Shown one piece after another: positions 1-14,538 of a stretch of DNA of 46,272 nt (its first letter is position 1; each line of letters starts with the position of its first letter). The notes below the pieces were generated by a model. It made no database searches, was not told where the DNA came from, and worked only from the letters and a program-made list of their open reading frames with translations. The position numbers were made by a program, and so were the translations under genes. The DNA comes from Candidatus Thorarchaeota archaeon. Its GTDB lineage: Archaea > Asgardarchaeota > Thorarchaeia > Thorarchaeales > Thorarchaeaceae. The stretch spans positions 1 through 46,272 of the forward strand of contig JBHLRZ010000004.1 of NCBI GenBank assembly GCA_048882045.1. The letters run 5' to 3'.

Positions 1-143
1 TTCAATGCTCTATCACTACCTGCAATCAGATACAGCATTGCAGGACCTGCTCCAATTCGTATCAGTTCTTTGACGACTATCGGTCTCTTTCTTCGCGATC
101 CTCTCGACTTTCCTCTCATTGCTGAGTCATTTGAAGCTATCAT
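1..143 (-). CDS. 5' part of a hypothetical protein running off the left edge
   Basis: Open frame from ATG at 143 (MIASNDSAMRGKSRGSRRKRPIVVKELIRIGAGPAMLYLIAGSDRAL...) to the window edge. Not in the ORF track because it is truncated. Confidence 0.45.
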   Translation of the reverse strand, partial: MIASNDSAMRGKSRGSRRKRPIVVKELIRIGAGPAMLYLIAGSDRAL

Positions 144-172
144 TCAGACTGGTTTCAATGTTTCTACAAAAA

Positions 173-215
173 GAGAATTTGGGCCCGTCGCGAGGGAAAA
201 CATAGGGAAAGCAGG
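173..215. repeat. Copy 1 of the ~43-bp direct repeat (3'-end fragment of the candidate ncRNA at 2398-2499)
   Basis: GAGAATTTGGGCCCGTCGCGAGGGAAAACATAGGGAAAGCAGG matches 2390-2432 at 38/43 positions by manual alignment. Confidence 0.85.
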
Positions 216-290
216 GAAACAGTAATTTGTGTATACACGTGCTCAAGGTGATTCAATAGAGATATACGCATTTACACTATGTGACTTCTT

Positions 291-1592
291 GTGATCGCGA
301 GAGGAGTTTCAATTGGATTGATAGCATTGGTTTTGATTTCACCAATCACAGTGTTGTCTGATAGGGCTCTACATGGATCTAATCACTCCAATGCTAGCGA
401 AATTATCTCCTACCTGCCTTCTGATGTTTCATACAACTCCTCTGTAGTCATTTTATCCGATACTGATTTTGTTATGCAGAATTGGCCAGGTAATGGAAGT
501 GAGAGTTCCCCCTACTCGATTTCGAATCTGCGTTTCAGTCCTGATGAAGATTCAATAATAAGAATTTACAACACGAGAGCACACTTTCTGTTGAACAATT
601 GTGTTTTTGAGTCTCAGGATAGTTATCCTTGGCCAAGCTATGGGGCAGGTGTCATCCTCTTCAATGTTTCAAATGGCGTTATCGAAAATTGCTCCATCAA
701 TGGAAAAAACACTGGTCTAGGTATAACAAACATAAACAACACCCTGATAAGAAATAATCTGATCAAAAGATGCGATCATGCAATTGACATGTATCAGATT
801 TCCAACTGTGCCTTTTCCAACAATTCGATCTTCTCACATGACTACAGTACCGGTATTTCAGGAGGCAGAATAAGCTACAGCAATTTTACTGCGAATATAC
901 TCGTTGAAGGATTCACTGGATTGTCTCTAGGTCCCAATAGTATCAATAACACTCTTACATTGAATCGAATTGGATGGTGTACCGAAGCAAATGCTAAAGA
1001 CTTTGGTTCTGGAAACACATGGGAAGGAAACAGCTGGAGTGATTGGGATGGGGTCAGTCCCTACCTTATTTCCGGATCAGCCGGTAGTGTCGATGTTTCC
1101 CCCATCTTGTTTGATGAAGATGTTATCGCACCGACAATTGAATTCTATCGCTATAATGGAGTTGTGGCCGATTCATTGCACCCTATTTACTCATTCACGT
1201 TTGTCGTCAATGTGTCTGATGCCACGGGAGTTGATTCAGTCAGTTTGTTCATAAACAATGGGTTTCTGATTGAGGACGGCAAATTGGTGCAGAGCTTCTG
1301 GACTGAGTATAATATGGACTATCAACCTATCGAAGGAAACCTGAGAAGATACTCCTATACATTTAGTTGCAATGGAAGTTTCAGCGCCACCTATTATTAC
1401 TGGGCTAACGACACTCTTGGATACTCCCGACGAAGCGAAATCGACTCTTTCAGTATAAGCCCTTTTCCGTGGGGCACTTGGTCTCCCGATAATACCCCGT
1501 CACTGGGTCCTGAATACCTCTTACTCCTACCAATCGGAGCACTTGTACTTGTATGGCTGGTTAGACGACTGAAACCAATCGACAAGCCGTAA
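291..1592 (+). CDS. Secreted, membrane-anchored right-handed parallel beta-helix (NosD/CASH-like) surface protein
   Basis: N-terminal hydrophobic signal, WPGNGSESSPY motif, Asn/Ile-rich beta-helix repeats, GNSWSDW, an Ig-like domain, and a C-terminal TM followed by RRLK. Confidence 0.8.
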   Translation: MIARGVSIGLIALVLISPITVLSDRALHGSNHSNASEIISYLPSDVSYNSSVVILSDTDFVMQNWPGNGSESSPYSISNLRFSPDEDSIIRIYNTRAHFLLNNCVFESQDSYPWPSYGAGVILFNVSNGVIENCSINGKNTGLGITNINNTLIRNNLIKRCDHAIDMYQISNCAFSNNSIFSHDYSTGISGGRISYSNFTANILVEGFTGLSLGPNSINNTLTLNRIGWCTEANAKDFGSGNTWEGNSWSDWDGVSPYLISGSAGSVDVSPILFDEDVIAPTIEFYRYNGVVADSLHPIYSFTFVVNVSDATGVDSVSLFINNGFLIEDGKLVQSFWTEYNMDYQPIEGNLRRYSYTFSCNGSFSATYYYWANDTLGYSRRSEIDSFSISPFPWGTWSPDNTPSLGPEYLLLLPIGALVLVWLVRRLKPIDKP

Positions 1593-1656
1593 CTTGAACA
1601 ATCATCTGTCAATAATGTAAGTTTGAAGATAATAGAATGCGGGGAGAGAAAAGAGT

Positions 1657-1696
1657 AGAATTTGGGCTCAGCACTTGAAAATATCGGGAAAGAATG
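1657..1696. repeat. Copy 2 (more degenerate, 2-bp deletion) of the ~43-bp direct repeat
   Basis: AGAATTTGGGCTCAGCACTT--GAAAATATCGGGAAAGAATG aligns with AGAATTTGGGCCCGGCGCTTGGGAAAATATAGGGAAAGTAGG. Confidence 0.7.
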
Positions 1697-1831
1697 AGGG
1701 GGATTTTGAGACACTGGCAAAAGTATCTCAAGAAATTGACCGTGCAACTGAAACGAGAGAGGAAATCCATAGATTATTTTGACAAGATACTTAAATATTC
1801 GAGAACGATTGAAGATTTGAGGTTCTATATA

Positions 1832-2251
1832 ATGGGTGTCGTAAAAGTTGCAGGCTCAGTCCTTGTCTTGGCAGGTGGCGTTCTATCGCTATTAATACCA
1901 ATCGAATTATTGTTTGGGTGGTTTGGACTTTTTGATTTATTGCTATTAGGGTTTACCTACGGACTCATTGTTGCTAGTATTGGAGAGTTTTACATATATT
2001 TTGGTTTAATCTTGGCAATTTTAACCATCTTGGGTGGTATCATCGGATTTAGGAAAAAGGCTGGCGGTGGTATCGCGTTAGTTGTTGGAGCTATTATGAT
2101 ACTCGGTGGATTCGTAAATGCACCATTATTATTTCCAATGTCAGCAATGCTCCTATGGACAGGTCAATTCTTTGTTGGACCGGGTGTTCTTACCATTGAA
2201 GCAATTCTAATTGTTGTCGGCGGTATTCTTTGTCTAGCTGGTGGCGATTGA
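1832..2251 (+). CDS. Small Gly-rich membrane protein (~4 TM), 139 aa
   Basis: Hydrophobic segments begin at the ATG at 1832 (MGVVKVAG...). The upstream extension of ORF 1694 overlaps repeat copy 2 and a likely promoter. Confidence 0.7.
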   Translation: MGVVKVAGSVLVLAGGVLSLLIPIELLFGWFGLFDLLLLGFTYGLIVASIGEFYIYFGLILAILTILGGIIGFRKKAGGGIALVVGAIMILGGFVNAPLLFPMSAMLLWTGQFFVGPGVLTIEAILIVVGGILCLAGGD

Positions 2252-2389
2252 AACCTGAAGTTCTAACGATGGATCCTCAAAAATACCTCATCTTTCAGAA
2301 TTTCTAGTTCAGGATAATTATCTGTTCATTCATCTGGAGGGTTCATACATCATATACTAATCGTACGACGACATGATTAGGAAAGAAAT

Positions 2390-2432
2390 GAGAATTTGGG
2401 CCCGGCGCTTGGGAAAATATAGGGAAAGTAGG
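2390..2432. repeat. Copy 3 of the ~43-bp repeat, forming the 3' end of the candidate ncRNA
   Basis: GAGAATTTGGGCCCGGCGCTTGGGAAAATATAGGGAAAGTAGG. Confidence 0.85.
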
Positions 2433-2499
2433 CTACCGTAAGGTAGCAGGTATTCGCGTGGTTAGGAGGGGAGTTTGAAGTTACCCTCACGCCAGACCC
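2398..2499 (-). ncRNA. Candidate novel ~102-nt structured non-coding RNA
   Basis: On the minus strand 5' GGGUCUGGCG pairs with 3' CGCCGGGCCC (10 bp, two G-U pairs that would be A-C on the plus strand). It has an internal GCUACC/GGUAGC hairpin, a pyrimidine-rich segment, a TATA box at -29..-22 and a U-rich trailer. Confidence 0.6.
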
Positions 2500-2520
2500 T
2501 GTCGATAATTCTATTGATAG

Positions 2521-2529
2521 TATATTAAG
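2521..2529 (-). promoter_or_regulatory. TATA box of the candidate ncRNA
   Basis: CTTAATATA on the minus strand at canonical archaeal spacing from the GGG 5' end at 2499. Confidence 0.55.
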
Positions 2530-2674
2530 GATTGAGTTAGAGGAAATTGGAAAAATTAAGTGTGGTACTGCTCACAATGAAGTAGACACTCAGATTCTTG
2601 AAGATTGAGAAAATAGGACTTGATTTACTGTGTTGTTAGATGCCTATTGTCACGGCATCCGTTAACACAGTTGA

Positions 2675-5600
2675 CTATTCCTCATCATCCTCAACAGGAA
2701 GGAGCTCTCTAAGTTGGGCTTTTGTCAACTTCTCCAGTTCCTCAATCCCCATCAACTCCTTTAGCTCTTCCGGCAACATTGCAATGATCTCTGACTTTGT
2801 CAAACGAGACTCGGGTCTAGTAGCAGTAGGTTCCTTGTCATCAATCTCTTCTGAAATGATGACATCTTCTGCTGTTGCACTTTCAATCTCATCGACCTCG
2901 ATTCTATCATCAGCAATCTCAGTAAGAGTTCTTCCATCGTCTCTCCTACTTCGTACACTACTTGATGCTCTTGACAAACCTTTTGCCATTCTTGACGATG
3001 TATAAGGTATGACAACCAGAAATACAACTGGCAGAAGTACAATAACACCCAAAGAGTAGCTTCTGAGAAAGTCCATGGTGAGTACTGTCGTCCCTGCTAG
3101 GACAACAAGGAACATGAAGAATTTCATGCGAATAGAAGATCCCAAGCTCTCAACAAGATCCGCACACTCCTGTTCAACAACAATCGGAGGTGTTCCTAGA
3201 ACAGCCATTTCTCCAAGTCGAGAAATTCCTTTCCGAATATCTCTGTAGACGTTCAGAACGACTATCACTATTGAGGAGATGTAGGCTGCAAATATGGTCA
3301 TCATGATAGTCGGTACCTGAATTTCACCAAGGTGAAAGACGTTGTCCAATACATAGAACTTCAACCATTCTATGTTCTGACCCCAATCAAATAGCTGCAC
3401 AATGACAATTGGTACGAAAATCAAATGCCATAGACCTAGAAACATTCTACGTCGGCCTATTCTCTGAGAGTGAAGTACCGATGAAGCTGCGTCTCTGTAT
3501 AACCAGATACCATATAGGATTAGTGAGATTCCCAAGAGTAACACGCTCTCTAGGACAGCTAGACTATAATTCCCTGACCCCGCTGATACATATGAATGGA
3601 AGATTGTAAGACCAGCTAGCGCTACAATGACTCCATACAAGTAGTCTAGTCTCCGAAGTCCTCTCAGGAGCTGCTCTTGTGAACCTCTAGTGAACGAAAG
3701 CCCGGAAGAAATTCGGAAGTAGATCCACAATCCAATGAAACTGACTAGAAATACGATCCCAAAGACAGGGACGAATTGTTCGATGGGTAGTGACAGCTGT
3801 GGGACTGCCACGATGACTGGCACTTCGGATAATGTCTGTGGTGAAAATGTAACACACATGATTCCCTCCGCTGCTATTACGATTGGTTCGTCTCCGTAAC
3901 CTTCTGATGCAACAATATAGCTCACAACATATTTTCCAATCTGACCGAGCTCCGTTGCCAACTTGGTCTGGCTCTGGAAAGTCACTGTAATAGTCAGGTC
4001 CGGCACTGGATTCCCATATTTGTCTGTCACCTCAATGGTGATATTCAACTGATCTCCTTGCTGAGGTACTTCTGGGAAGAATTCCACATTGAACACAAGT
4101 TCTGCATGTACTTCAATGGTCCCTCTTGTTGTGGACTCTTGCGCTAGATAGGGGTGATCAATTGTCAGAGTATAGTTGTATATCCCTGCTGCCCAACCCG
4201 CGGTTGAAACTACTCGAGAATACGTTCCATTGTTGTGGTCTACCAAGACAAAGAAAGAATCATGTATGAGGACTGAAACAGAACCGCCATCCATCACATT
4301 GTCAAGCATATCAAACAAATCAACTTTGAAGATAATGGAATCAGTACCCTGTATATATGTTGCATTCTCAATCGGTGATAGAAGTGTGATGTTTGGCTGG
4401 CTCTTCACTTCCAACATGAAGGTCGTTGTGCTTGTTGGTATGTGTAGGCCTGAAATCGTCACATTGAGAAGATGTTGGCCAGGAATCAATTCTGGTATGA
4501 AAGTCCAGATGATCTTGAAGTAGTCGGAGGTTCCTGAGAAACTGTATACGCCACCAAAGTCGAGTACATAATGGTAATCACCGATTGGATTGCCATATTG
4601 ATCTTCTACTGCTATAGTAAATGTAGCATTCTCATAATTGAGAAGAACCAAGGGATTCGTGTCAACTCTGACAATGGCATCTCCGATGATGTCGAAGCTG
4701 GCTGTCAGTTGCTGAGTTTCCATGAATGCTCCTGAGACGGTTATTTGTGCACTATATTCTCCTAGAGGGAGGTTCGTCGTTGTGATATTGATTTCGTAAA
4801 ACCCTATACTTGTTTCAATGAGTGGATATGTTGTACCATGTAAATATAGGGTCACTGTTGCACCTGTGATGAATGATGTTTCATTGTCACGGACACGAAC
4901 AACGAAATTGATAGTCTCACCCTGACTAAATGATGCTCCTGGAGAAGGTTGAATGATCTGTGCTGCGACAATTCCTTGTACACCTATACTAACATTATGA
5001 GTTGACCTAAGAATTAGATTGCTCTCAACTGACATATTCAACCAGTAGCTTCCCGGAACAAAGCTTGGATCTATGGTCCATGAGATTTTATGGGATGCTG
5101 AAAATCCTGACCTGTTGTAGATTCCTGCAAAGTCTAATGTATAGTTGAATCCAGTTAGCGCGTTGCCATAGGCATCTGTGACTGTGAAATCGAAGGTTAC
5201 ATTGTATTGATTAAGTACAGGGCTAGGGGTTATCGAGAGATCAACAGATGCATATCCCTTGACGAATAGCTGGAAGGAAATCAGCTGTGAAGACAGATAG
5301 CTGTGCGATATTGCAACCGTGATATTGTACTGTCCTAATGGAAGACCAGCTGTCGGAACTTGTCTGGAATACACTCCAGGAACTCCTTCAGTCAATGTAT
5401 ATGTGCTCCCACGTATCGTTGCAGTCACCAGTGCAGTTGAGATTGAATAACCAGCAAGGTCTTCAACAACTACTGTGAAGTTGATTTCATTACCTTGAAT
5501 GTACGTTGATTGATCCAAAGGTGAAGGTACAATTGACAATGGGTTTCCAATAATATCCACCCATATCATAAACTCGCTCTGAGATAGGAATGGTCCGCTT

Positions 5601-8600
5601 ATCGTTATATTAAGCTGATATTTTCCCGGATAAAGATCTGGTTGGAACTCCCAAGATGTTTCATAGGAATATGATGTTCCTGATTTCGTGAAGGTTCCAG
5701 CGAAGACGAAGTCATAGTCGAATGTATAGATTGGGTTTCCGTATGTATCTACAACAACAAAATCGAATCTCGAAGTCTGATGGTTATACACAATATCAGG
5801 CATAGAAACATCTACAACTGCCTGTCCGTTGACTGTCAGAACATGGTAGGAATCTTCTGCAAACAGGTATGTGTGTTCAATTAAAATCAGTAATGAGTAG
5901 TTTGCTGGTGAATAACCATTTGTATCCAAGTTCATCCAATAGGTGCCATCACCGTATGGTGTGAAAAGGATGCTAGCTGGACTCAGTAGTGATACAGTTG
6001 CATCAGGAATCAAACTCCCATACCAATCTCTAACTGTGACGGTCAGTGTCGTTAAGTCTCCTTGGGTCAATATCCATCCCAAAGAAGATTCAACACTTGT
6101 TTCAGGAAGCGAGTAAACAAACAGGTCGTGAGCATCAGCTCTTGGGTCACCAAAGTCTGCTCCCACATACACGATAATGCTATGCTGACCAACACTCAGT
6201 GAAGCATTCAGTGTTACTCTGAATTCTGCTCCTTCGATATGAGTTGCTGTATAGTTTGATCCACCAAGTTCAATTTTAGCCCAAGCACCAACAGGCGTGA
6301 CACCATATGAGTCGTATACAAAGACAGAAACTGTGAAGTTATTACCTCCTGTGACTGTTGACTCATAAGCAACAGCAGGCGCGAGTGTGCCAGTCACTGC
6401 CATATGATAGGAGCCAAATACAGTTCCTTCCACATAGGGATGTTGGATTATTATTTCTCCCGAGTAATTCCCAACTGGCATTGAAGCAATGTCGTTTAGT
6501 TGGTATCGCCCTGGTTCAATCTCGATCAATGTGAACTCAATTACACCAAAATCTACTGATACAGTCGCACTGCTAATGGGATTTCCAAAGGGGTCGGTAA
6601 CATTGAGCCACGTTGTGAATGACTGGTCTTGCTGTGTTTGTGGTGGAGAGTTTCGTAAAACAGTAAGATCGTATGCCACAACAGAAAGTGATTTTGAAAG
6701 ACTAGTCCCAGATGTGGCATACTGGTGATCTGCAGAAGCAAGAACTGTGTAACTACCTGGTGAAAGGTCGATTCCTATGATTGATCTAAAGTATGATCCC
6801 TCTACATAAGAAACTGGATAGATTATACCATCAAGCGTCACATTAACATCAGCATCTGTAACTTTCGAACCCAGGATGTCAGTTACTGTAATGTTGATGT
6901 GAAGGTTATTTCCCTGTAGGACTTCGGATTCTGTAAAGAGAGAAATACTGAGTGGTGACTCAACTCTCAGAGCATTCTCAAACTCGAAGCTGATTGGATT
7001 ATAGTAGAGGTGGTCGACATACAGAGACAGGTTAGCTAATCCCATAGGCCAGTTCGGTGCCACAGTCGTTGTGTAAAGCTGTGTAGAATCTTCATAGACC
7101 ATACCCATGGTTTGTTCTGAGGTTCCTATACCAAAACGATATGACGCCACAAGTGATACTGAGGCATCACTCACTGGTTCGCTGAAAACGTTGAGGACTG
7201 TGGTATTAGCCCATAAGCTACTACCCTGAAGTGTTACGCTTGTTTCAAGGTCGAATGCAACATCAAGCATGTATAGAAGGTCAATATTACGGATTGTAGC
7301 GAGTGTGTTTCGTGACTTGAATATCGGGAATGCTACAATGTCTTCTCCAGCCCCAACATCAACATTCCCAATAGGGGCCATGTTGAACGCGATACCCGGA
7401 TATGCTGCGTAGTCAATCGTGCCGCTAAAACTAATTGCAGTCAGAAGGTCATCGGATGTGGAAATGACAAACTCGTCCTCACCATCACCATCGAAATCTA
7501 GTACAATGCCACTTCTGGGTATGGCATCACTCACAAACACGGTCCAAGATTGAACTGCTGTGGTCGTTAGTTCATAAAGTGATGCATTACCACCCGCATC
7601 CAAAAATGATAATTCATCGACACCATCCTCATCAACGTCGTGAGGTAAGGTGACCCTGATATGTTGACCTGTAAATATGTAACTGGGCCAATCACCAACG
7701 TTCACTGTGTTTCTGTCTACTAGGCAGACATAATTTGTTGGTACGTCAACCAACCAACTGCGATAAACTACTAGTAGTTGATCGCTTGTGTGTGTTGAAT
7801 TCCTATATACTTGAATGCTGACTGGGTCGTCATAATCCGTTGCTCCTGGAGATGTGTAATTGAGTGTCTTCAAATACGTGACGTTATTGAGCTGATACAA
7901 GTAGACAGCATTATCGTACCTCAATATGGCTAGTTGAGGATCAGTACCGTACATGTTGATTGGTACATAGTCCACAATCGATGTCCATTCCTTTAAAGCC
8001 GCGTCAGTCCATGTGCCAAAACTATCATCTGCTCTAATCAAGAATTGACCCGTGCTGTTTTCCCCTACATAAGCCAGTTCGTCAATCTTGTCGCCATCAT
8101 CATCCACAATGACCATTCCGTGTGCTGCCTTTGCCGGATAGAGACTATATGATGTGTTTTTCCACGAAGTGAATGTGTCACCATTGAAGGCCCAGATTTT
8201 GATGTGAGTATAGTTGTTGCTGATGAGTATTGGATCCAGCACATTGTCACCATCAAACATACCTGTGTAAACTTCAAACACTTCATCCGTGGCATCTGTC
8301 AGAGTGAATTCACCAAGCTTTGTGAAATTAGAGCTGAAGACTCTCAAACTTGTACTCTTGAAATCCATATCTGATACAACATTGTATATTCGGCTCTCTC
8401 CAAGAGAATCATTACCGAGTGCCAAGACATGTCTTTGGGCCTCATCGAACGTGACATTATAGTGGACACCTGATGCAAGATGCCCCTCTACTGTCAAAAT
8501 GTGAGGATTGGAGAAATTGCCATAGGAGTATGTGTTCAAGAATGGGTCTACAACTTTGATGTAGTATTCGTAGTTTCCCGCTTGCAAATCTGTTTGGAAG

Positions 8601-10156
8601 AAGATGAACTTACCACCTTGTGCCTCAGTCATGGCATTCTCTTGATAGCCTCCTACAGCGAAGTCTGATGGGCGGATGTAGACTTTAGCTTCTCTTACAT
8701 ACATCTCATCAGTTGCTGTTAGTTCGACTTTGAGATAGGGATCATAGACTGTTGGATGAGTTGGATAGATAGGATCTAGAGTGACTTCAGGGGGAGCGGT
8801 ATCACTCAGGAGAATCTTGATTTGCCCATAGTGCATGATTGTGTCACTTCTCCCATCATTGTTAATATCGTACGAGAGCACCTGTTCAAAAGGTCCTGGC
8901 AGTCTTGGATCTTCATAACCGATTTCCCCGTTGCTACCTCTAATCAATGAAAATTGACCTGTCGGACCTTCTAGCACGACATCTGTGAAAGAATCTGAGT
9001 CAAGATAATCTGTGGCAAATCCGCGAGAAAACATGCTCACACACTCTTCCTGTGAGATTCTCAAAACTCTTCCATCGACCCCGCTAACAAAAATCACGGA
9101 AGACCTCATACCAGGGACAACAACTAGGTCTTCTTGCATGTCCATGTTGAACTTCCCTGTTTTCACATAAGACTCCCCTAGGTACTTCGTATCCCTAAAC
9201 GAAAACCTTGGAGTCAGATTAGCGTTGAGAGCAATTAGAACATTCTCTTGAGCAATATTATCAGCCATTGTTACTGCTAGATTATCGAAGTCATTATCAT
9301 ACTCAAAAGAAACCATGTCATAACCATGAACATGGGGAGTTGATAGAATGGGGGATGGATTTATAGATGTGCCATCTCCGTAAATAGTGTCAACAACAAC
9401 CCTACTGAGGGATGTCCATGGATCTTGTATCCACATGACTCCAATCTCATCACCAGCTGCAATCGAAAAATTGCCAACGCATACTTTTACAATCTCTTCT
9501 GTAGTAAATGGTATCTGTGGAAAGACACCAAGTATCGTGTCACTGTTAAGGTCTTTTATGACCAGACGAATTCTGCTATACACACCCACATCAATCAGTG
9601 AGTCACCATTGAAGTCTCCAACGATGATTCCAGTTGGATCTGGAATGGGATCATAGTTGTACTTGGTTACTGAACCTCCTCCATCAAAATCAACTACAAC
9701 GAGATTCGTATTCGTAAGGTTGAACATAATGAATAGAAACTCAGTGTACCCGTCCAAATCAACATCTGCTCCGATAAGCGTGTTGTGCAAAGGGTTTCCG
9801 AGTCCAATATTCACTGAAGCGTCAACTATGTTTATTGGATCTCTGAAGCGAAGTGTGTCATTGAATATCCAAACTACCCCACGTCCATGAGTAGTGTTCC
9901 CTGCTGCTACCGATGGGACATAGTACGGCAGGTTGACTCCTACTAGATTCGAAGCTGGTTCAAATTGACCCTCTATCTCATTGATTGAAATGACTGAGCT
10001 GTTATTCGAAACATCTATTGAACATAGAGACGTGAACAGCAACATCACGACAACTAATGGTAGTCCTATCTGGAGCAACTCTCTCTGGTTCTTGGAAAAT
10101 GGTTTTACACAGGGTCTAAAGCTGCTAACAGTTCGATTCTTCATCATTTCAATCAC
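2675..10156 (-). CDS. Giant cell-surface protein: 2 FG-GAP/VCBS beta-propellers + 12 Ig-like repeats + 7-TM domain + acidic cytoplasmic tail
   Basis: N-terminal hydrophobic segment; DxDxDG-type motifs (DVDLDGYTE, DFNGDSLID, DINNDGRSD, DDDGDKIDE, DVDEDGVDE, DFDGDGEDE); 12 repeats of VxDxxGxP-type motifs; seven hydrophobic helices at the C-terminus. Confidence 0.85.
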   Translation of the reverse strand: MIEMMKNRTVSSFRPCVKPFSKNQRELLQIGLPLVVVMLLFTSLCSIDVSNNSSVISINEIEGQFEPASNLVGVNLPYYVPSVAAGNTTHGRGVVWIFNDTLRFRDPINIVDASVNIGLGNPLHNTLIGADVDLDGYTEFLFIMFNLTNTNLVVVDFDGGGSVTKYNYDPIPDPTGIIVGDFNGDSLIDVGVYSRIRLVIKDLNSDTILGVFPQIPFTTEEIVKVCVGNFSIAAGDEIGVMWIQDPWTSLSRVVVDTIYGDGTSINPSPILSTPHVHGYDMVSFEYDNDFDNLAVTMADNIAQENVLIALNANLTPRFSFRDTKYLGESYVKTGKFNMDMQEDLVVVPGMRSSVIFVSGVDGRVLRISQEECVSMFSRGFATDYLDSDSFTDVVLEGPTGQFSLIRGSNGEIGYEDPRLPGPFEQVLSYDINNDGRSDTIMHYGQIKILLSDTAPPEVTLDPIYPTHPTVYDPYLKVELTATDEMYVREAKVYIRPSDFAVGGYQENAMTEAQGGKFIFFQTDLQAGNYEYYIKVVDPFLNTYSYGNFSNPHILTVEGHLASGVHYNVTFDEAQRHVLALGNDSLGESRIYNVVSDMDFKSTSLRVFSSNFTKLGEFTLTDATDEVFEVYTGMFDGDNVLDPILISNNYTHIKIWAFNGDTFTSWKNTSYSLYPAKAAHGMVIVDDDGDKIDELAYVGENSTGQFLIRADDSFGTWTDAALKEWTSIVDYVPINMYGTDPQLAILRYDNAVYLYQLNNVTYLKTLNYTSPGATDYDDPVSIQVYRNSTHTSDQLLVVYRSWLVDVPTNYVCLVDRNTVNVGDWPSYIFTGQHIRVTLPHDVDEDGVDELSFLDAGGNASLYELTTTAVQSWTVFVSDAIPRSGIVLDFDGDGEDEFVISTSDDLLTAISFSGTIDYAAYPGIAFNMAPIGNVDVGAGEDIVAFPIFKSRNTLATIRNIDLLYMLDVAFDLETSVTLQGSSLWANTTVLNVFSEPVSDASVSLVASYRFGIGTSEQTMGMVYEDSTQLYTTTVAPNWPMGLANLSLYVDHLYYNPISFEFENALRVESPLSISLFTESEVLQGNNLHINITVTDILGSKVTDADVNVTLDGIIYPVSYVEGSYFRSIIGIDLSPGSYTVLASADHQYATSGTSLSKSLSVVAYDLTVLRNSPPQTQQDQSFTTWLNVTDPFGNPISSATVSVDFGVIEFTLIEIEPGRYQLNDIASMPVGNYSGEIIIQHPYVEGTVFGSYHMAVTGTLAPAVAYESTVTGGNNFTVSVFVYDSYGVTPVGAWAKIELGGSNYTATHIEGAEFRVTLNASLSVGQHSIIVYVGADFGDPRADAHDLFVYSLPETSVESSLGWILTQGDLTTLTVTVRDWYGSLIPDATVSLLSPASILFTPYGDGTYWMNLDTNGYSPANYSLLILIEHTYLFAEDSYHVLTVNGQAVVDVSMPDIVYNHQTSRFDFVVVDTYGNPIYTFDYDFVFAGTFTKSGTSYSYETSWEFQPDLYPGKYQLNITISGPFLSQSEFMIWVDIIGNPLSIVPSPLDQSTYIQGNEINFTVVVEDLAGYSISTALVTATIRGSTYTLTEGVPGVYSRQVPTAGLPLGQYNITVAISHSYLSSQLISFQLFVKGYASVDLSITPSPVLNQYNVTFDFTVTDAYGNALTGFNYTLDFAGIYNRSGFSASHKISWTIDPSFVPGSYWLNMSVESNLILRSTHNVSIGVQGIVAAQIIQPSPGASFSQGETINFVVRVRDNETSFITGATVTLYLHGTTYPLIETSIGFYEINITTTNLPLGEYSAQITVSGAFMETQQLTASFDIIGDAIVRVDTNPLVLLNYENATFTIAVEDQYGNPIGDYHYVLDFGGVYSFSGTSDYFKIIWTFIPELIPGQHLLNVTISGLHIPTSTTTFMLEVKSQPNITLLSPIENATYIQGTDSIIFKVDLFDMLDNVMDGGSVSVLIHDSFFVLVDHNNGTYSRVVSTAGWAAGIYNYTLTIDHPYLAQESTTRGTIEVHAELVFNVEFFPEVPQQGDQLNITIEVTDKYGNPVPDLTITVTFQSQTKLATELGQIGKYVVSYIVASEGYGDEPIVIAAEGIMCVTFSPQTLSEVPVIVAVPQLSLPIEQFVPVFGIVFLVSFIGLWIYFRISSGLSFTRGSQEQLLRGLRRLDYLYGVIVALAGLTIFHSYVSAGSGNYSLAVLESVLLLGISLILYGIWLYRDAASSVLHSQRIGRRRMFLGLWHLIFVPIVIVQLFDWGQNIEWLKFYVLDNVFHLGEIQVPTIMMTIFAAYISSIVIVVLNVYRDIRKGISRLGEMAVLGTPPIVVEQECADLVESLGSSIRMKFFMFLVVLAGTTVLTMDFLRSYSLGVIVLLPVVFLVVIPYTSSRMAKGLSRASSSVRSRRDDGRTLTEIADDRIEVDEIESATAEDVIISEEIDDKEPTATRPESRLTKSEIIAMLPEELKELMGIEELEKLTKAQLRELLPVEDDEE

Positions 10157-10545
10157 TTCAAGCAGATTGGCGAGTCTTCGTAGGTGGCGTTCATATGAAA
10201 TATCAACATCAAATACGAAATTTCGCGTACTATTTTTCTGGGATTTATTTCAAGATATGTAGGATGTAGAACTTCGAAAAATGGTGAAGAATATACCTTT
10301 TGAAAAGAAGATAGGATCCGATTCGGTGTGTGTAGGTATTCGAAAGTTTCCTTTCGATTCGCGTGGTAGGAGGGAGATTGTTTTGAAGATATTAGAAATC
10401 AACGAATCGAATCCTTTGTGGGCTCCGGAATCTCTGGTTAATAAACTTATTTTTGTCGGAATATTGCACAAAAATAAATTCAGTACAACCCTTTGGCTGA
10501 TATTAAATAGTGTCCACTAATGTGGAGGCTTTGCCCCTTGCGGGA

Positions 10546-10905
10546 CTAGTATCCCCACTCCTGTCCTTGCCTCTGACGGTACCAACGATTGCCCTTCTTG
10601 GTGAGAGAGTATGTTCCCTGAATTTCAGTTAGCAGTCCCATCTCGACCATGTTTCGAAGAACACCGAATAGCTTGTCGTCAGATGCGCCTGTGGCTGACT
10701 TGAGCATTGGAAAGGTCATCTTGCCGTTCCTCTTGATGTGCTGTGCAATATCGTACTTTCCAACAGATCTGGTTTCAGTACGGACTATGATGTGTCCGCA
10801 GTTTGTGCAGAGGAGGTCTCCCTTGTGATCGTCACGGGCTACTTCCCTACTGCCACAGATCGGGCAGGTCGTCTTTGAGAATCTTAGTGAACGTCTATGT
10901 GACAT
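10546..10905 (-). CDS. TFIIB-type zinc ribbon + winged-helix protein (119 aa)
   Basis: CPICGS...LLCTNCG ribbon and a C-terminal wHTH (LRNMVEMGLL...YSLTKKG). Start moved to the ATG at 10905 to avoid overlap with the upstream gene. Confidence 0.75.
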   Translation of the reverse strand: MSHRRSLRFSKTTCPICGSREVARDDHKGDLLCTNCGHIIVRTETRSVGKYDIAQHIKRNGKMTFPMLKSATGASDDKLFGVLRNMVEMGLLTEIQGTYSLTKKGNRWYRQRQGQEWGY

Positions 10906-10969
10906 GTTTCCGACCGAGTTGGACTCGACTAGTACCTTGATAAAACTAACGAAGCGACTGAAGGCTAAC

Positions 10970-11473
10970 TCATGGTTTCTCTTCAACAAGGTTTCGAAAG
11001 AACGCTTCGTAGTCGATCTCGAATGGGACCCTTACTCCCAACCGCACTCTCCTGGTTGTCTTATCCATTTCGACATACCCTTGAGCTTGCAACTCCCGTA
11101 AGTCCTCCATGACTCCTCGCAGACTCTTCTTTCTAAACTCTCGCACTCGGTCATAGGAGACCCAGCCTCCTTCCTGATATGCGAGTGTGATGACAATTAG
11201 TAGAGTTGCAGCCAACTTGTCAGGGAGGGGTGATTCCTGTTTCAACTTGGTCTGAAGGGAAGTGTCCACATAAAACACACCACTGACGGGATTGTGTTTG
11301 ATTGTGAGTCCCACTGGTTCTAAGCGTTTGTGGAGTTCACCCATTCTCCTGAATAGGGTCCCTCTTCCTATGTCCTCTGGTAGACCTAGAGCATCGAGCA
11401 TGTCATCTACTCCTGCACCTATGGGATCTCCAGATCTGGTAAGGAGCTTCATGAGAATGGCATACTCGTTCAG
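10970..11473 (-). CDS. Tandem winged-helix KITE-family protein (ScpB / Nse3-MAGE-like SMC subunit)
   Basis: Two WH-like halves. ELHKRLEPVGLTIKHNPVSGVFYV and LAATLLIVITLAYQEGGWVSYDRV resemble MAGE WH-A and WH-B. Probable CTG start at 11473 with AGGTGA 7 nt upstream (ORF track start is 11452). Confidence 0.6.
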   Translation of the reverse strand: MNEYAILMKLLTRSGDPIGAGVDDMLDALGLPEDIGRGTLFRRMGELHKRLEPVGLTIKHNPVSGVFYVDTSLQTKLKQESPLPDKLAATLLIVITLAYQEGGWVSYDRVREFRKKSLRGVMEDLRELQAQGYVEMDKTTRRVRLGVRVPFEIDYEAFFRNLVEEKP

Positions 11474-11603
11474 GGTTCTTTCACCTGCGACTATCCTATT
11501 CGCTAATCAAGGAGGTATAAACACTGAGGTCGAATGAATGAAGCGCGCTTTTCCAAAATTATTAAGACATATCAACTAACTTGATTATTGTAGTTGAGGG
11601 AGA

Positions 11604-12044
11604 ATGACAAGTGAACCGAACACAAAGCGTGAGCGTATCTACACAGTTATTGTCATTCTTATTCTTGTCACCACTAATCTCTACTTCTACGTGGTTGATC
11701 CGCTCTCTATCTTTGAATTTCTAGGTTTGGAGCTTTTCTATCTCCTGATATTTGGACTATATGAAAGACTCTTGATCTGGACCAACACCAAGTACAAGCA
11801 AATTGAAGTGAGCCACCTTGATGAATTTATGATCCTCTACATTTTCTTTGTAGTTCAAATTATGCCAGGAGTTTTGTGGGTCATCTTGGGGGAAACTGAT
11901 CTATCTTCTCTTCAAATCCCGATATTTGGCATGTCAGTTATGATACTCTGCTTCTTGCTGGCAAGGGCGATAGTCAGACAGATTCAATTTACCAGGCAGT
12001 CTTCAGAAACACAAGATCCCTCTCAACAGGCTACTGAATTGTAG
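11604..12044 (+). CDS. Hypothetical 4-TM membrane protein
   Basis: Four hydrophobic segments; GAGGGAG RBS upstream of the ATG. Confidence 0.7.
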   Translation: MTSEPNTKRERIYTVIVILILVTTNLYFYVVDPLSIFEFLGLELFYLLIFGLYERLLIWTNTKYKQIEVSHLDEFMILYIFFVVQIMPGVLWVILGETDLSSLQIPIFGMSVMILCFLLARAIVRQIQFTRQSSETQDPSQQATEL

Positions 12045-12144
12045 TCAATGCTTTGATAGTCACAATATGTGACTTCATTCTGTGACCCTAACAAGTGGCT
12101 TCGCTATATATACTGATTCTGAGCAGTACTTCTTGTGAAAAATC

Positions 12145-12243
12145 ATGGCTCTAGCTACTAACTACCGAAATTCACTCGTGAAGAAGAACAAGAAGGCTCA
12201 GTCAACTGATGCCATCACCTACGCTTACTTCGCCTACAGGTGA
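12145..12243 (+). CDS. Small basic peptide A (32 aa, MALATNYRNSLVKKNKKAQSTDAITYAYFAYR)
   Basis: Read manually. TATA-like CTATATATA at ~12104. Paralogous to 12393-12491. Confidence 0.6.
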   Translation: MALATNYRNSLVKKNKKAQSTDAITYAYFAYR

Positions 12244-12248
12244 TCTCA

Positions 12249-12365
12249 TTGACACGTGCTGAAAGAACTGCAAACTGGCTCTTAGCCGATGCTGTTGTGA
12301 CCCAGCGTGGTCACCCAGTGGTCACAGAAGTGGGCACAGAGTCTCAGAAACACAATATCCTGTGA
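12249..12365 (+). CDS. Possible 38-aa ORF (MTRAERTANWLLADAVVTQRGHPVVTEVGTESQKHNIL)
   Basis: TTG start preceded by AGGTGA formed by the end of peptide A. It overlaps GTCAC/GTGAC inverted repeats, so it may be regulatory rather than coding. Confidence 0.3.
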   Translation: MTRAERTANWLLADAVVTQRGHPVVTEVGTESQKHNIL

Positions 12366-12392
12366 CCACCCTATGAATGGTTGTGAAACATT

Positions 12393-12491
12393 ATGGCTCT
12401 CGCTAAAATCCAAGGTAGCAAACGTATATTGAACAAAGCAAAGCACGTTCAGTCCACAAGGGCAATCGCTGAATCATATTTCAGGAGATAA
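12393..12491 (+). CDS. Small basic peptide B (32 aa, MALAKIQGSKRILNKAKHVQSTRAIAESYFRR)
   Basis: Shares MALA...KxKxxQSTxAIxxxYF..R with peptide A. Its last codons (AGGAGA) form the RBS of the MFS gene. Confidence 0.6.
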   Translation: MALAKIQGSKRILNKAKHVQSTRAIAESYFRR

Positions 12492-12496
12492 TTAGA

Positions 12497-13843
12497 TTGA
12501 CTGAAACGATACTTGTCGAAGAAACTCAAGAACAGCCCGAAACCAAGGGCTTCAAGGCAGTCCTCAGCCATCGCGACTTCTCCTATCTCTGGTCAGGTCA
12601 ATTGGTGTCCAATATAGGTACAGCAATTTCTGTCCTTGCTCTCATGTTCTATGCCTATGATCTCACAGGTTCTGCTATTGCGATGGCAATCCTAGCAATG
12701 ATGGAAACACTGCCTGTTGTCGTGTTTGCTGGGTTTGTCGGTGTGTATGTTGATCGGTGGAACCGAAAGACAATCATGATCGCATCTGATGTCACTCGAG
12801 CAATCACAATTCTCCTCATCCCTCTCACAATATACTTTCCACCATTTATGCCCACGATATATTGGGTATATCTCCTCACGTTCATCTATGCTACAGCCAA
12901 TGCATGGTTCTTTCCTGCAAGGAGCGCTTCAATCCCCAATCTAGTTGAAGGGGATGAACTGGTAGCCGCCAACTCTCTATCTCAGATGACATTTCAGGTA
13001 GTTCAGCTAGTAGTCCCCCCACTCGGCGGAATCCTAGTAGCGCTCCTTGCTCCAGACTATTTCCTTGCGTTTGCAATAACAGCAAGTACATTCGTGGTCT
13101 CTGCGTTTGCACTTCGTAGTATACAGACCAACCTTCGACCTGACAGATCTCTGGATGATAAGGAATCACTCATGAAGCAGATTGTTCAGGGAGCTCGTTA
13201 TGTCATTGGGAATGCAATCTTGTCATTTCTGTTCGTGTTTGCTATGCTTCTTGCAGTATCATCAGGAATCTTGAATGCATTACTAATGCCATATTTGGAT
13301 GGAGAACTTGGATTCGGGTCAGTTCAATTAGGATTGATTCTAAGTGCCGGCGCTGCTACCGGTGCGGTCACAGCCATCTACTTCAGCAGGAAGCAAGACT
13401 TGGACAAACCACTATACCTCATTGTGATGGCGGAATTACTAGCTGGTGTGGCAATATTCGCCTTAGTCTTCGCATTTGATCTTGTTACAGTGATGTTGTC
13501 CTGGGCCATGATAGGTGCTGTTGATGTTGTCATCAACATTCCACTTTCAGTATTGATGCAAAAACTTGTTGAAGACAAACTCAGGGGTCGTGTCTTTGCT
13601 CTTCTCAATGTAGCATTCACAGCGGTACAGGTCGTTGGAATGGGTATTGGAGGAGTTTGGGCTGAGGTTGCGGGTTCGACTGGTCCTCCGATGCTTGGAG
13701 CAGCCTTCGGACTAGTACTGATTTCAGTCATAGGGTTCATAGTAGTGAGTGTACTGAATCTACACTCTCGCCTTGAAACACCCCCAATTGAGGAAGAGGT
13801 TGAAGAGGAAGTCGAAGAAACACTGATAGTAGTCCATGCTTGA
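12497..13843 (+). CDS. MFS transporter, DHA3/MefA-like efflux family
   Basis: About 12 TM; RDFSYLWSGQLVSNIG, GVYVDRWNRKTIMIASD (MFS motif A), LRGRVFA. Confidence 0.9.
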   Translation: MTETILVEETQEQPETKGFKAVLSHRDFSYLWSGQLVSNIGTAISVLALMFYAYDLTGSAIAMAILAMMETLPVVVFAGFVGVYVDRWNRKTIMIASDVTRAITILLIPLTIYFPPFMPTIYWVYLLTFIYATANAWFFPARSASIPNLVEGDELVAANSLSQMTFQVVQLVVPPLGGILVALLAPDYFLAFAITASTFVVSAFALRSIQTNLRPDRSLDDKESLMKQIVQGARYVIGNAILSFLFVFAMLLAVSSGILNALLMPYLDGELGFGSVQLGLILSAGAATGAVTAIYFSRKQDLDKPLYLIVMAELLAGVAIFALVFAFDLVTVMLSWAMIGAVDVVINIPLSVLMQKLVEDKLRGRVFALLNVAFTAVQVVGMGIGGVWAEVAGSTGPPMLGAAFGLVLISVIGFIVVSVLNLHSRLETPPIEEEVEEEVEETLIVVHA

Positions 13844-13867
13844 TGACCTCAAGCATGGCAGTCCTCT

Positions 13868-14524
13868 TTATGTGGAATCTATCTCTGCGAAGGATGGCCT
13901 CCAGATCTCACGTGTTTCTGGATCATAGTTCAACTGACCTCGAGACACAAGAATGACCACATAGAGAAACTGTTTCAGGAAGACATCGAACTCATCACTC
14001 TTAACGATGTCGTCAAATAGGACTCTCCCATTTCCTAGAGTTCGTAAGAACCTCTCCAGGTCCGCAAGGAAGACAGAATCCTCGGTGTCTAAGGCATAGC
14101 CATTCGGTAGTTCAGCTACTTTCGGTATTGGGTCATCTTGAGGTTCTTGTGACATAGCATCAATGAGATTAACAATCCTTTCCAAAGACTCTCCAAGTGC
14201 ATCATGTTCTAGTTGCGTTAATATCAAAGGCTGAAGTGGTGTCAACAGACTTGCAAGTTCTCGAGTCGACTTACCTTTCAATCGGTTAACATAAATTTCT
14301 GGCGCAGCTAGAACCCTAGCAAGCTCCTGTACGCGATTGACCTTGGTTCCTAAGACCTCATTCAACATCTCATCGATGTCAATTCTGCTGTCAATCTTTG
14401 CTACAAGTTCTTGGAGTTCCTTGTATGGTTGGGTAAGTCGGATTTCGAGAGGATCAATATCTCCTGAGCGAACAGCCTGGACCATCTTGAATACCTGTTC
14501 AGCTAGGATCTCATTATCACTCAT
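13868..14524 (-). CDS. Kleisin (ScpA/Nse4-like) subunit of the SMC complex
   Basis: Immediately downstream of smc. N-terminal GDIDPLEI resembles ScpA GxIDPWDI, and the C-terminal WH FLYVVILVSRGQL resembles kleisin FLALLxLxxxGxV. Confidence 0.65.
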   Translation of the reverse strand: MSDNEILAEQVFKMVQAVRSGDIDPLEIRLTQPYKELQELVAKIDSRIDIDEMLNEVLGTKVNRVQELARVLAAPEIYVNRLKGKSTRELASLLTPLQPLILTQLEHDALGESLERIVNLIDAMSQEPQDDPIPKVAELPNGYALDTEDSVFLADLERFLRTLGNGRVLFDDIVKSDEFDVFLKQFLYVVILVSRGQLNYDPETREIWRPSFAEIDST

Positions 14525-14538
14525 TCAACCTTCTCCTT

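What the first reader, a model, noticed from the sequence alone, without database searches (positions are those of the whole stretch)
173..2499. Single-gene cassettes stacked behind the 3' end of a novel RNA gene (integron-like array or integration hotspot)
Seen: the last ~43 bp of the candidate RNA gene (2390-2432) recur in the same orientation at 1657-1696 (degenerate) and 173-215 (38/43 identical). Neither copy carries the RNA's 5' half. Each interval holds exactly one accessory envelope gene (a beta-helix surface protein; a 4-TM protein), both antisense to the RNA. The repeat has a GGGCCC palindrome and GGGAAA boxes about one helical turn apart (194, 205, 214 in copy 1). Established: tyrosine-integrase elements insert at 3' ends of tRNA/tmRNA genes and leave displaced 3' fragments. 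Inference: 0.7-1.4 kb cassettes with no integrase of their own were inserted sequentially at a non-tRNA target by a recombinase acting in trans, giving a cassette system that varies surface genes.
Basis: partly seen in the sequence, partly recalled or inferred. Interest (0 to 1): 0.8.

Follow-up and report, generated by a model that had tools for sequence, protein, structure and literature searches.

The report
Gene cassettes stacked behind an archaeal RNA gene
In a genus of Thorarchaeota (Asgard archaea), the last ~43 bases of a conserved small RNA gene are a repeatedly used landing site where single genes, mostly for membrane or surface proteins, have been inserted one after another, each leaving a displaced copy of the RNA's tail and no recognisable integrase.

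Summary
The 3' ~43 nt of a minus-strand ncRNA gene (about 2499 to 2395) recur in the same orientation at 169-215 (41/47 identical) and, degenerate, at 1657-1696. They occur nowhere else in the 3.6-Mb genome.

The RNA is real. It has a TATA box at -29 and a 27-nt core invariant across the genus. Its 16-bp terminal helix shows covariation, and the helix's 3' strand lies inside the repeat. Rfam and ARAGORN find nothing there.

Comparison with about 40 related loci gives the main result:
- Relatives carry 0, 1, 2 or 4 units between the RNA and a conserved small gene (F2).
- Each unit holds one ORF and is bounded by a copy of that genome's own RNA tail.
- Repeat identity runs from 39/39 down to a 15-nt remnant.
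- Clean empty/occupied pairs exist.
- Cargo differs between genomes: beta-helix proteins, small TM proteins and ORFans.
- The window's TM gene is an ordinary chromosomal gene at an unrelated locus in another Thorarchaeota MAG.

No integrase lies at the locus and none was detected in this genome. The repeats are not hairpins, so this is not an integron. The best reading is a site-specific insertion hotspot served in trans. The mechanism is inferred, not shown.

The parts
2395..2500 (-). Conserved ~105-nt ncRNA gene. A 16-bp terminal helix closes a loop that holds an invariant 27-nt core, a variable hairpin and a pyrimidine tract.
   Evidence: Conserved in about 20 of 24 congeners and in 31 Thorarchaeota contigs. 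The RNAalifold terminal helix has 13 pairs, 6 of them with compensatory changes. The minus-strand fold has z = -3.1, the plus strand -0.8. No Rfam or tRNA hit.
2521..2528 (-). TATA box (TTAATATA) of the RNA gene, about 22-29 nt upstream of its 5' end.
   Evidence: Invariant or near-invariant in the alignment of 20 loci.
2386..2432 (-). Repeat copy 3: the RNA's own 3' end (pyrimidine tract, AT-rich box, 3' strand of the terminal helix, U-rich trailer). This is the insertion target.
1697..2385 (+). Cassette A (RNA-proximal). It holds one ORF, 1694/1832-2251, encoding a small multi-TM protein found in no congener.
   Evidence: Absent from 27 congeners. The nearest homologue (71% aa; 79% nt over the ORF only) lies at an unrelated chromosomal site in another Thorarchaeota MAG, with no RNA gene or att-like copy nearby.
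1657..1696 (-). Repeat copy 2: a degenerate displaced RNA 3' fragment. Its 3' part is identical to the RNA; its 5' part is diverged and has an indel.
216..1656 (+). Cassette B. It holds one ORF, 291-1592 (433-aa NosD-type beta-helix protein with signal-like N-terminus and C-terminal TM anchor), with its own promoter motif at about 242-269.
   Evidence: Pfam NosD. Hydrophobic segments. The promoter motif GCGTATATNTCTATTGAA (RNA-strand reading) is conserved next to the F4 genes of other loci. The locus-specific F4 clade has 100/100 support.
169..215 (-). Repeat copy 1: a displaced RNA 3' fragment, 41/47 identical to the RNA's end.
152..167 (-). Conserved GTAGAAACATTGAAAC motif upstream of F2. 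In 'empty' relatives it follows the RNA gene directly.
1..143 (-). 5' part of the F2 gene (small protein with an Arg-rich N-terminus; Zn-ribbon C-terminus in relatives). It is the conserved right-hand neighbour of the insertion site and continues on contig C77.

Best explanation
The 3' ~43-45 nt of a Thorarchaeota-specific ncRNA gene is a reused, position-specific insertion site. Compact units, nearly always one ORF with its own promoter and mostly encoding membrane or secreted proteins, enter at this site. Each entry regenerates an intact RNA 3' end next to the RNA body and leaves a displaced copy of that end on the far side of the insert. New units enter next to the RNA and push older ones outward. 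Displaced copies then decay. Recombination between copies can delete or reorder units.

In the window, two such units lie between the RNA and the conserved neighbour F2: the TM gene and the beta-helix gene.

Shown: the insertions, the duplications, a fixed right boundary with a left boundary that is usually the same, the stacking, the turnover among relatives, and the absence of an integrase at the locus.

Inferred: the events are conservative site-specific (att x att) recombination between a small circular or larger donor DNA carrying a copy of the RNA tail and the chromosomal RNA gene. On this reading the catalyst is a recombinase encoded elsewhere (a mobile element or an unrecognised family), as with integrases that target tRNA 3' ends.
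For: 1. Reality and uniqueness of the repeat.

2. The same architecture (RNA, one ORF, a copy of that genome's own RNA tail, then F2) occurs in other genomes with different cargo. These are G022 (139 aa), G014 (100 aa), G006 (407 aa, repeat 39/39 identical), G020 and G021 (beta-helix). Metagenome contigs add L077, L133 (repeat 38/39), L135, L137 and L140.

3. Empty versus occupied sites. L047 has RNA then F2 directly. L053, whose flanks are 85-89% identical to L047's, has a 1.4-kb insert there, and the trailer after L053's displaced copy matches the trailer after L047's RNA. L105 and L088 (empty) pair with L135 (occupied) in the same way.

4. The right boundary of the duplication is the same within about 3 nt in independent events (...TTCTC / TTATTCT). 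The left boundary is usually at CCTACTTTCCC.

5. Array L138 reads: RNA, F4a, copy, 94-aa TM gene, copy, F4b, copy, 100-aa TM gene, degenerate copy, F2. Its last unit plus degenerate copy equals the single unit of G018/L041. Copy scores, proximal to distal, are 63, 69.5, 58 and 32.

6. F4a and F4b of that array are not sister genes, so they are not a recent tandem duplication.

7. Order is permuted in L134: RNA, F2, copy, F4.

8. The cassette A gene is foreign to the genus and sits at a non-homologous locus in another MAG.

9. Genome-wide control. Among 79 short direct repeats spaced 0.3-6 kb, the only other set seen to copy the 3' end of an RNA gene is a classic stack of tRNA 3' fragments behind an intron-bearing tRNA on contig C49. 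So integration at RNA 3' ends does operate in this organism.

10. From my own knowledge, not checked in a paper here: about 43 bp is within the size range of archaeal att cores.
Against: - No tyrosine recombinase was detected in this genome (PF00589, 93% complete). None was detected in G006, G014, G021 or G022, which carry cassettes. None lies at any of the roughly 40 loci.
- No free circular or plasmid/viral copy of the site was found.
- In the window the proximal, supposedly younger copy 2 is more decayed than the distal copy 1. This needs an extra assumption: a diverged donor site giving a hybrid copy, or selection on copy 1.
- In L138 the copy scores are not strictly graded either; only the most distal copy is clearly the most decayed.
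- L135's copy keeps only the 3' ~25 nt, and L050's identity extends about 10 nt further left. The left boundary is therefore not perfectly fixed.
- L133 has the beta-helix gene next to F2 with no copy between them.
- Beta-helix cassettes in different lineages each sit next to a copy resembling their own host's RNA tail. This also fits gene conversion between repeats.
Confidence: 0.55

Rival explanations
1. These are ordinary decayed integrative elements. Larger integrase-bearing plasmids or proviruses integrated at the RNA's 3' end, as they do at tRNA genes. Later deletions removed everything, the integrase included, except one gene per element.
For: The same genome has a stack of five displaced tRNA 3' fragments without a PF00589 integrase. 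One interval there still holds HerA/CedD-like and multi-HTH genes, as a degraded conjugative element would. Tyrosine recombinases occur sporadically in the genus on short contigs.
Against: About a dozen inserts from independent loci each hold one intact ORF at high coding density. None shows pseudogenes, multi-gene relics or integrase fragments. Sizes (0.45-1.6 kb) track ORF length. The youngest events (39/39 and 38/39 repeats) are already single-gene units.
Confidence: 0.2
2. The process is recombinase-independent. One option is 'insertion with long target duplication', as described for restriction-modification genes in bacteria. The other is Campbell-type homologous recombination of circles that were earlier looped out between two copies of the RNA tail.
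For: Insertions of gene units with 30-100+ bp target duplications and no mobility genes are documented, for example 46-bp duplications in Haemophilus influenzae (PMC2853133). No recombinase was found here. Order permutation and loss of units are what homologous exchange between 43-nt repeats would give.
Against: The documented cases have variable targets and duplication lengths. Here the same site and nearly the same boundaries recur in many independent events. Homologous recombination explains reshuffling but not how foreign genes first acquired a copy of the RNA tail.
Confidence: 0.15
3. The copies are functional duplicates rather than scars. They could act as promoter or leader elements for F2, as terminators, or as antisense target sites that let the ncRNA pair with cassette mRNAs.
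For: The copy next to F2 is usually the better preserved; in the window, copy 1 is better preserved than copy 2. The copy contains an AT-rich box and lies 30-50 nt upstream of the conserved F2 leader motif. Transcribed on the cassette strand, a copy would be complementary to the RNA's tail.
Against: L077 retains only 15 nt of the copy and L133 has none before F2, yet F2 is intact. The spacing from the AT box to the F2 motif varies from 36 to 47 nt. The conserved F4 promoter lies between the copy and the F4 start, about 27 nt from the start, so the copy is probably not in that mRNA. The copies form no stable hairpin and have no T-run on the cassette strand. Function would not explain empty and occupied sites.
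Confidence: 0.07
4. The repeats are a chance similarity or an assembly artefact.
For: The source is a MAG, and several contigs of relatives break at or near the RNA gene.
Against: The repeats are far above chance. The same architecture recurs in independent assemblies from different studies. The contig breaks fall at the repeat, as expected of real repeats.
Confidence: 0.01

Closest known systems
Integration of archaeal or bacterial integrative elements at the 3' ends of tRNA/tmRNA genes, with tandem stacking of displaced 3' fragments
   Same: The direct repeats equal the 3' part of a structured RNA gene. The RNA gene stays intact. Successive events stack behind the gene. Relatives show empty and occupied sites. 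The repeat length of about 43 bp is in the usual range. A textbook tRNA example lies in the same genome on contig C49.
   Different: The target is a novel lineage-specific ncRNA, not a tRNA or tmRNA. The inserts are single genes of 0.45-1.6 kb with no integrase or other element genes. No tyrosine recombinase was detected in the host genome.
Integrons (IntI, attI, attC cassette arrays), including those reported in archaeal MAGs (PMC9668308)
   Same: There is an array of mostly single-ORF units separated by a repeated site. New units are added at one fixed end. Order can be permuted and units lost. Cargo is accessory and often ORFan.
   Different: There is no intI. The repeated site is a copy of an RNA gene's tail and does not fold as an attC hairpin. 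At least the beta-helix cassette has its own promoter. Orientation is not uniform in relatives. Arrays are short (0-4 units).
'Insertion with long target duplication' of gene units without mobility genes (Furuta et al. 2010, PMC2853133)
   Same: Small gene units are inserted with a direct duplication of the target longer than 30 bp and no transposase or integrase.
   Different: Those events are scattered, have variable duplication lengths and mostly carry restriction-modification genes. Here one site is hit again and again with a fixed right boundary, a mostly similar left boundary and diverse cargo.

Membership tests
Integron | Integron integrase (intI, a tyrosine recombinase) adjacent to the array | tested here: not met
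   PF00589 gives 0 hits in the whole genome. The neighbours are an Ig-repeat giant protein, F2, an SBP gene, a WD40 gene and H+-PPase. No recombinase lies upstream either.
Integron | attC sites: imperfect inverted repeats that fold as single-stranded hairpins | tested here: not met
   DNA folds of both displaced copies, on both strands, give -0.1 to -2.2 kcal/mol, no better than shuffles. The only palindrome is GGGCCC.
Integron | Array of mostly single-ORF cassettes in one orientation, promoterless and expressed from Pc | tested here: inconclusive
   The single-ORF criterion is met. Orientation is mostly opposite to the RNA, but the 94-aa unit in L138 and F2 in L134 are co-oriented with it. 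The F4 cassette has its own conserved promoter-like motif.
tRNA/tmRNA-targeting integrative element (tyrosine integrase) | Direct repeats identical to the 3' part of the target RNA gene, with the gene left intact | tested here: met
tRNA/tmRNA-targeting integrative element (tyrosine integrase) | The target is a tRNA or tmRNA gene | tested here: not met
   ARAGORN finds 0 genes in the window. Rfam gives no hit at gathering or at E<=10 on the RNA.
tRNA/tmRNA-targeting integrative element (tyrosine integrase) | The element encodes its own integrase next to an att site | tested here: not met
   Each insert has one ORF. Those scanned against Pfam or NCBIfam have no recombinase domain: WIN TM and F4, L050 407 aa, L040 139 aa, L044 100 aa, L138 94 and 100 aa, L133 160 aa.
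tRNA/tmRNA-targeting integrative element (tyrosine integrase) | Empty and occupied sites among related genomes | tested here: met
   L047 vs L053; L105/L088 vs L135; L075 vs the window.
Insertion with long target duplication | A target duplication longer than 30 bp flanks an insert without mobility genes, with target and length varying from event to event | tested here: inconclusive
   The first part is met. The second is not: the same site and nearly the same boundaries recur. Definition taken from PMC2853133.
MITE or dispersed repeat | Many copies scattered over the genome | tested here: not met
   Only the three copies at this locus occur in 3.63 Mb.

The most novel reading that the evidence does not exclude
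The locus is a previously unknown cassette-capture platform of Asgard archaea, anchored on an ncRNA gene. It would use a recombinase family not recognised by current profiles, or the ncRNA itself or its RNP (for example with the adjacent Arg-rich/Zn-ribbon protein F2) to specify the site. It would move single genes, including foreign chromosomal genes, as minimal units. That makes it functionally analogous to integrons but mechanistically unrelated.
Probability: 0.12. Interest if true: 0.9.

Novelty: new variant of a known kind. Interest (0 to 1): 0.62.

Why it matters
Gene flow in Asgard archaea is of wide interest, and their mobile elements are barely known. This locus shows a defined, repeatedly used entry point for single accessory genes, many of them cell-envelope genes. 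It offers natural series of 0 to 4 insertions, clean empty/occupied pairs and events young enough (39/39 identical repeats) to be caught in populations. That makes the mechanism directly testable in metagenomes or enrichments. If the catalyst is new, it would be a second, independent solution to cassette capture. If it is an ordinary integrase, the locus still extends RNA-3'-end targeting to a novel non-tRNA RNA and shows integrase-less single-gene cargo.

Tried and rejected
- Dispersed repeat or terminator motif: rejected.
- tRNA, tmRNA or a known RNA family as target: rejected.
- Integrase at the locus, on the leftward extension (contig C77) or in the genome: not found.
- attC-like hairpin: rejected.
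- att site on viral or plasmid contigs: two IMG/VR scans gave nothing. The one 18-mer hit has no similarity in its flanks and is taken as chance.
- Cassette A gene elsewhere: found only as an ordinary chromosomal gene in another MAG, with no att or RNA nearby. This gives no direct evidence of a mobile intermediate.
- Close source for the G006 407-aa cassette: only paralogues of 30% identity or less in the genus.
- Duplications behind the shorter RNA variants of other Thorarchaeota genera: none.
- The multi-HTH 923-aa protein next to the tRNA stack as a multi-copy recombinase candidate: it is single-copy in the genome and was not pursued.
- Antisense-target and promoter readings of the copies: considered and judged weak (see rivals).
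Full report
**1. Observation**

The window is the start of contig C4 of a 3.63-Mb, 93%-complete MAG. Related contigs are titled Candidatus Thorarchaeota.

The repeat finder returns a 47-nt direct repeat, 169-215 vs 2386-2432, at 87% identity. A weaker third member lies at 1657-1684.

A 17-nt core with up to 3 mismatches hits exactly these three places, against 0.13 expected. Pattern and BLAST searches of the whole genome find nothing else. My own scan of the genome for short direct repeats spaced 0.3-6 kb lists this pair among 79.

**2. The RNA gene**

On the minus strand a TATA box (2528-2521) precedes a GC-rich segment that folds better than shuffles (z = -3.1, against -0.8 for the plus strand).

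BLAST finds it in about 20 of 24 sampled congeners, in 15 metagenome contigs and in 31 GTDB-representative contigs, nearly all titled Thorarchaeota or Promethearchaeota.

The alignment shows an invariant core (CAAACTCCCCTCCTAACCACGCGAATA), a variable hairpin with compensatory changes, an invariant CTACTTTCCCT, an AT-rich box and a terminal helix. RNAalifold on 24 distinct sequences gives a 13-pair terminal helix, 6 pairs with double compensatory changes; one pair is G-C in 14 sequences and A-U in 10.

The 3' strand of that helix, the pyrimidine tract before it and the U-rich trailer after it make up the repeated 43-47 nt. Rfam and ARAGORN find nothing. So the repeats are copies of the 3' end of a real, non-tRNA RNA gene. 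This agrees with the scan's separate note on the RNA (e1-5583525).

**3. Completing the locus**

The plus-strand ORF 1-225 is an artefact. The real gene is on the minus strand and encodes the N-terminus of a small Arg-rich protein, here called F2.

Contig C77 ends with the window's first 77 nt. It supplies the rest of F2, a 692-aa SBP_bac_5 protein, a WD40 protein and H+-PPase. It has no more copies and no integrase.

Read in the RNA's direction, the locus is: RNA, TM gene (opposite strand), copy 2, beta-helix gene F4 (opposite strand), copy 1, GTAGAAACATTGAAAC, F2, SBP, WD40, PPase.

**4. Relatives**

I fetched ±10 kb around the RNA in 19 congeners and added the metagenome and GTDB loci. I oriented all of them on the RNA and clustered their ORFs.

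The WD40-PPase block is always present. It starts right after the RNA in one clade, and from 0.5 to 5.1 kb further on in the others.

In eight loci the RNA is followed directly by F2. In G022, G014, G006, G020 and G021 the order is: RNA, one ORF on the opposite strand, a 40-45-nt copy of that genome's own RNA tail, the F2 leader motif, F2. Contigs L077, L133, L135, L137 and L140 show the same pattern in whole or in part.

Cargo differs between genomes:
- F4 beta-helix proteins.
- A 407-aa protein with a C-terminal anchor.
- A 139-aa soluble protein and a 100-aa soluble protein.
- 94-aa and 100-aa two-TM proteins.

Identity begins at CCTACTTTCCC in most events and ends at TTCTC or TTATTCT in all. 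L050 extends about 10 nt further left, and L135 keeps only the 3' ~25 nt.

Repeat identity falls along a series. It is 39/39 in G006 and 38/39 in L133, roughly 80-90% in G020, window copy 1, G014, G021 and G022, and roughly 75-80% with an indel in window copy 2. G018 has only a marginal full-length trace, and L077 a 15-nt remnant. That spectrum is what decaying scars look like. It argues against strong selection on the copies.

**5. Insertion, not coincidence**

L047 (G016) and L053 (G020) share 85-89% identical flanks. L047 has RNA then F2. L053 has a 1.4-kb F4 unit in between, and the trailer after L053's displaced copy (GTCTAACTTGT...) is the trailer after L047's RNA (GTCTAACTTCT...).

The same holds for L105/L088 against L135.

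L075 carries the window's RNA type, with the repeated tail identical to the window's. It has RNA then F2 with no cassette.

**6. Stacking**

Contig L138 reads: RNA, F4a, copy, 94-aa TM gene (same strand as the RNA), copy, F4b, copy, 100-aa TM gene, degenerate copy, F2. Its last unit and degenerate copy are the single unit seen in G018/L041. Three units were therefore added on the RNA side.

Copy scores, proximal to distal, are 63, 69.5, 58 and 32, against a null maximum of 37.5.

F4a and F4b are not sisters in a tree in which all locus-linked F4 genes form one clade (100/100) apart from genomic paralogues. L134 has the permuted order RNA, F2, degenerate copy, F4. L133 has a young 139/160-aa unit in front of an F4 that has no copy on its F2 side.

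**7. Origin of cargo**

The window's TM gene has no homologue in 27 congeners. Its nearest relative is 71% identical in protein and 79% in DNA, the DNA match running from 14 nt upstream of the start to the stop. That relative lies between unrelated housekeeping-type genes in another Thorarchaeota MAG, with no RNA gene or tail copy nearby.

F4 belongs to a family with 10-19 members per genome, but the nearest relatives of the window's F4 are all at this locus.

**8. Mechanism**

No PF00589 recombinase was detected in this genome. Only 8 of 28 congeners have one, never at the locus, and not G006, G014, G021 or G022. The copies do not fold as attC hairpins. F4 carries a conserved promoter-like motif about 27 nt before its start, between the copy and the ORF. 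So this is not an integron, and the inserts are not self-sufficient integrative elements.

The same genome does hold a classic stack on contig C49. An intron-bearing tRNA (ARAGORN: tRNA-Gln) is followed by five displaced tRNA 3' fragments. HerA/CedD-like and multi-HTH genes lie in the first interval, and again there is no PF00589 hit. Integration at RNA 3' ends thus occurs in this lineage and leaves integrase-less relics.

I therefore favour site-specific recombination in trans at the ncRNA tail (0.55). The rivals are trimmed classical elements (0.2), recombinase-independent routes such as long-target-duplication insertion or Campbell-type homologous exchange (0.15; PMC2853133), functional duplicates (0.07) and artefact (0.01).

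One point is unexplained. In the window the proximal copy 2 is more decayed than the distal copy 1. A hybrid site from a diverged donor would fit, because copy 2's 3' part is identical to the RNA and its 5' part is diverged. That is an inference.

**9. Verdict**

It is unproven on the recombinase and overstated as 'integron-like'.

Novelty: a new variant of a known kind. Interest: 0.62.

Noticed in passing
G000 contig C49 (L100) 723-17203: An intron-bearing tRNA (ARAGORN: tRNA-Gln, 723-828) is followed in the same orientation by five displaced tRNA 3' fragments at about 9745, 13055, 13782, 16503 and 16918. The intervals are 8.9, 3.3, 0.7, 2.7 and 0.4 kb. The first interval holds a 923-aa multi-HTH protein and a 1029-aa HerA/CedD-like ATPase. 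There is no PF00589 integrase. A further fragment lies on C91:1996.
   Followed up: partly
G000 contig C43 12134-22446 and C56 11120-14516: A 60-67-nt repeat recurs 7 times on C43 and 3 times on C56 at 1.0-2.5-kb spacing. One strand contains ATGGCACG(T)GAGAT. It is probably the conserved 5' end of tandem paralogous genes, but it could be another cassette-like array.
   Followed up: no
window 1-225 and G000 contig C77: The 5'-open plus-strand ORF 1-225 is spurious; the real gene is F2 on the minus strand. Contig C77 (5067 nt) overlaps the window start by exactly 77 nt, so the two contigs join. The break inside F2 may reflect strain heterogeneity in the array.
   Followed up: yes
L133 (Ga0209536_100011052), L054/L079, L134: The ncRNA tolerates insertions. 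L133 has a ~27-nt hairpin inside the otherwise invariant core. L054 has a ~40-nt expansion of the variable hairpin. L134 has a 4-nt insertion in CGCGAATA. Other Thorarchaeota genera have shorter variants that lack the variable hairpin but keep CTCCCCTCCTAACCACGCGAATACC. The core contains CCUCC, like an anti-Shine-Dalgarno sequence.
   Followed up: partly
window 2675-10156 and upstream flanks of relatives: The 5' side of the RNA gene is also variable. A conserved pair of small genes (~168 aa and a ~120-aa Zn-ribbon protein) is separated from the RNA by nothing, by a 277-aa membrane protein, by a 349-aa protein, or by the giant Ig-repeat protein seen in the window. I did not look for duplications on this side.
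   Followed up: partly
window 1694-2251: Homologues of the TM protein are 138-142 aa and cover 75% of the long ORF, so the true start is probably ATG 1832. The 5' 138 nt of the ORF, which overlaps repeat copy 2, is probably untranslated.
   Followed up: partly
window 2572-2634: Weak sub-threshold Rfam match to a C/D-box snoRNA model (snoR130, 20.3 bits, E = 1.8) between the RNA gene's promoter and the end of the giant ORF. Probably chance.
   Followed up: no
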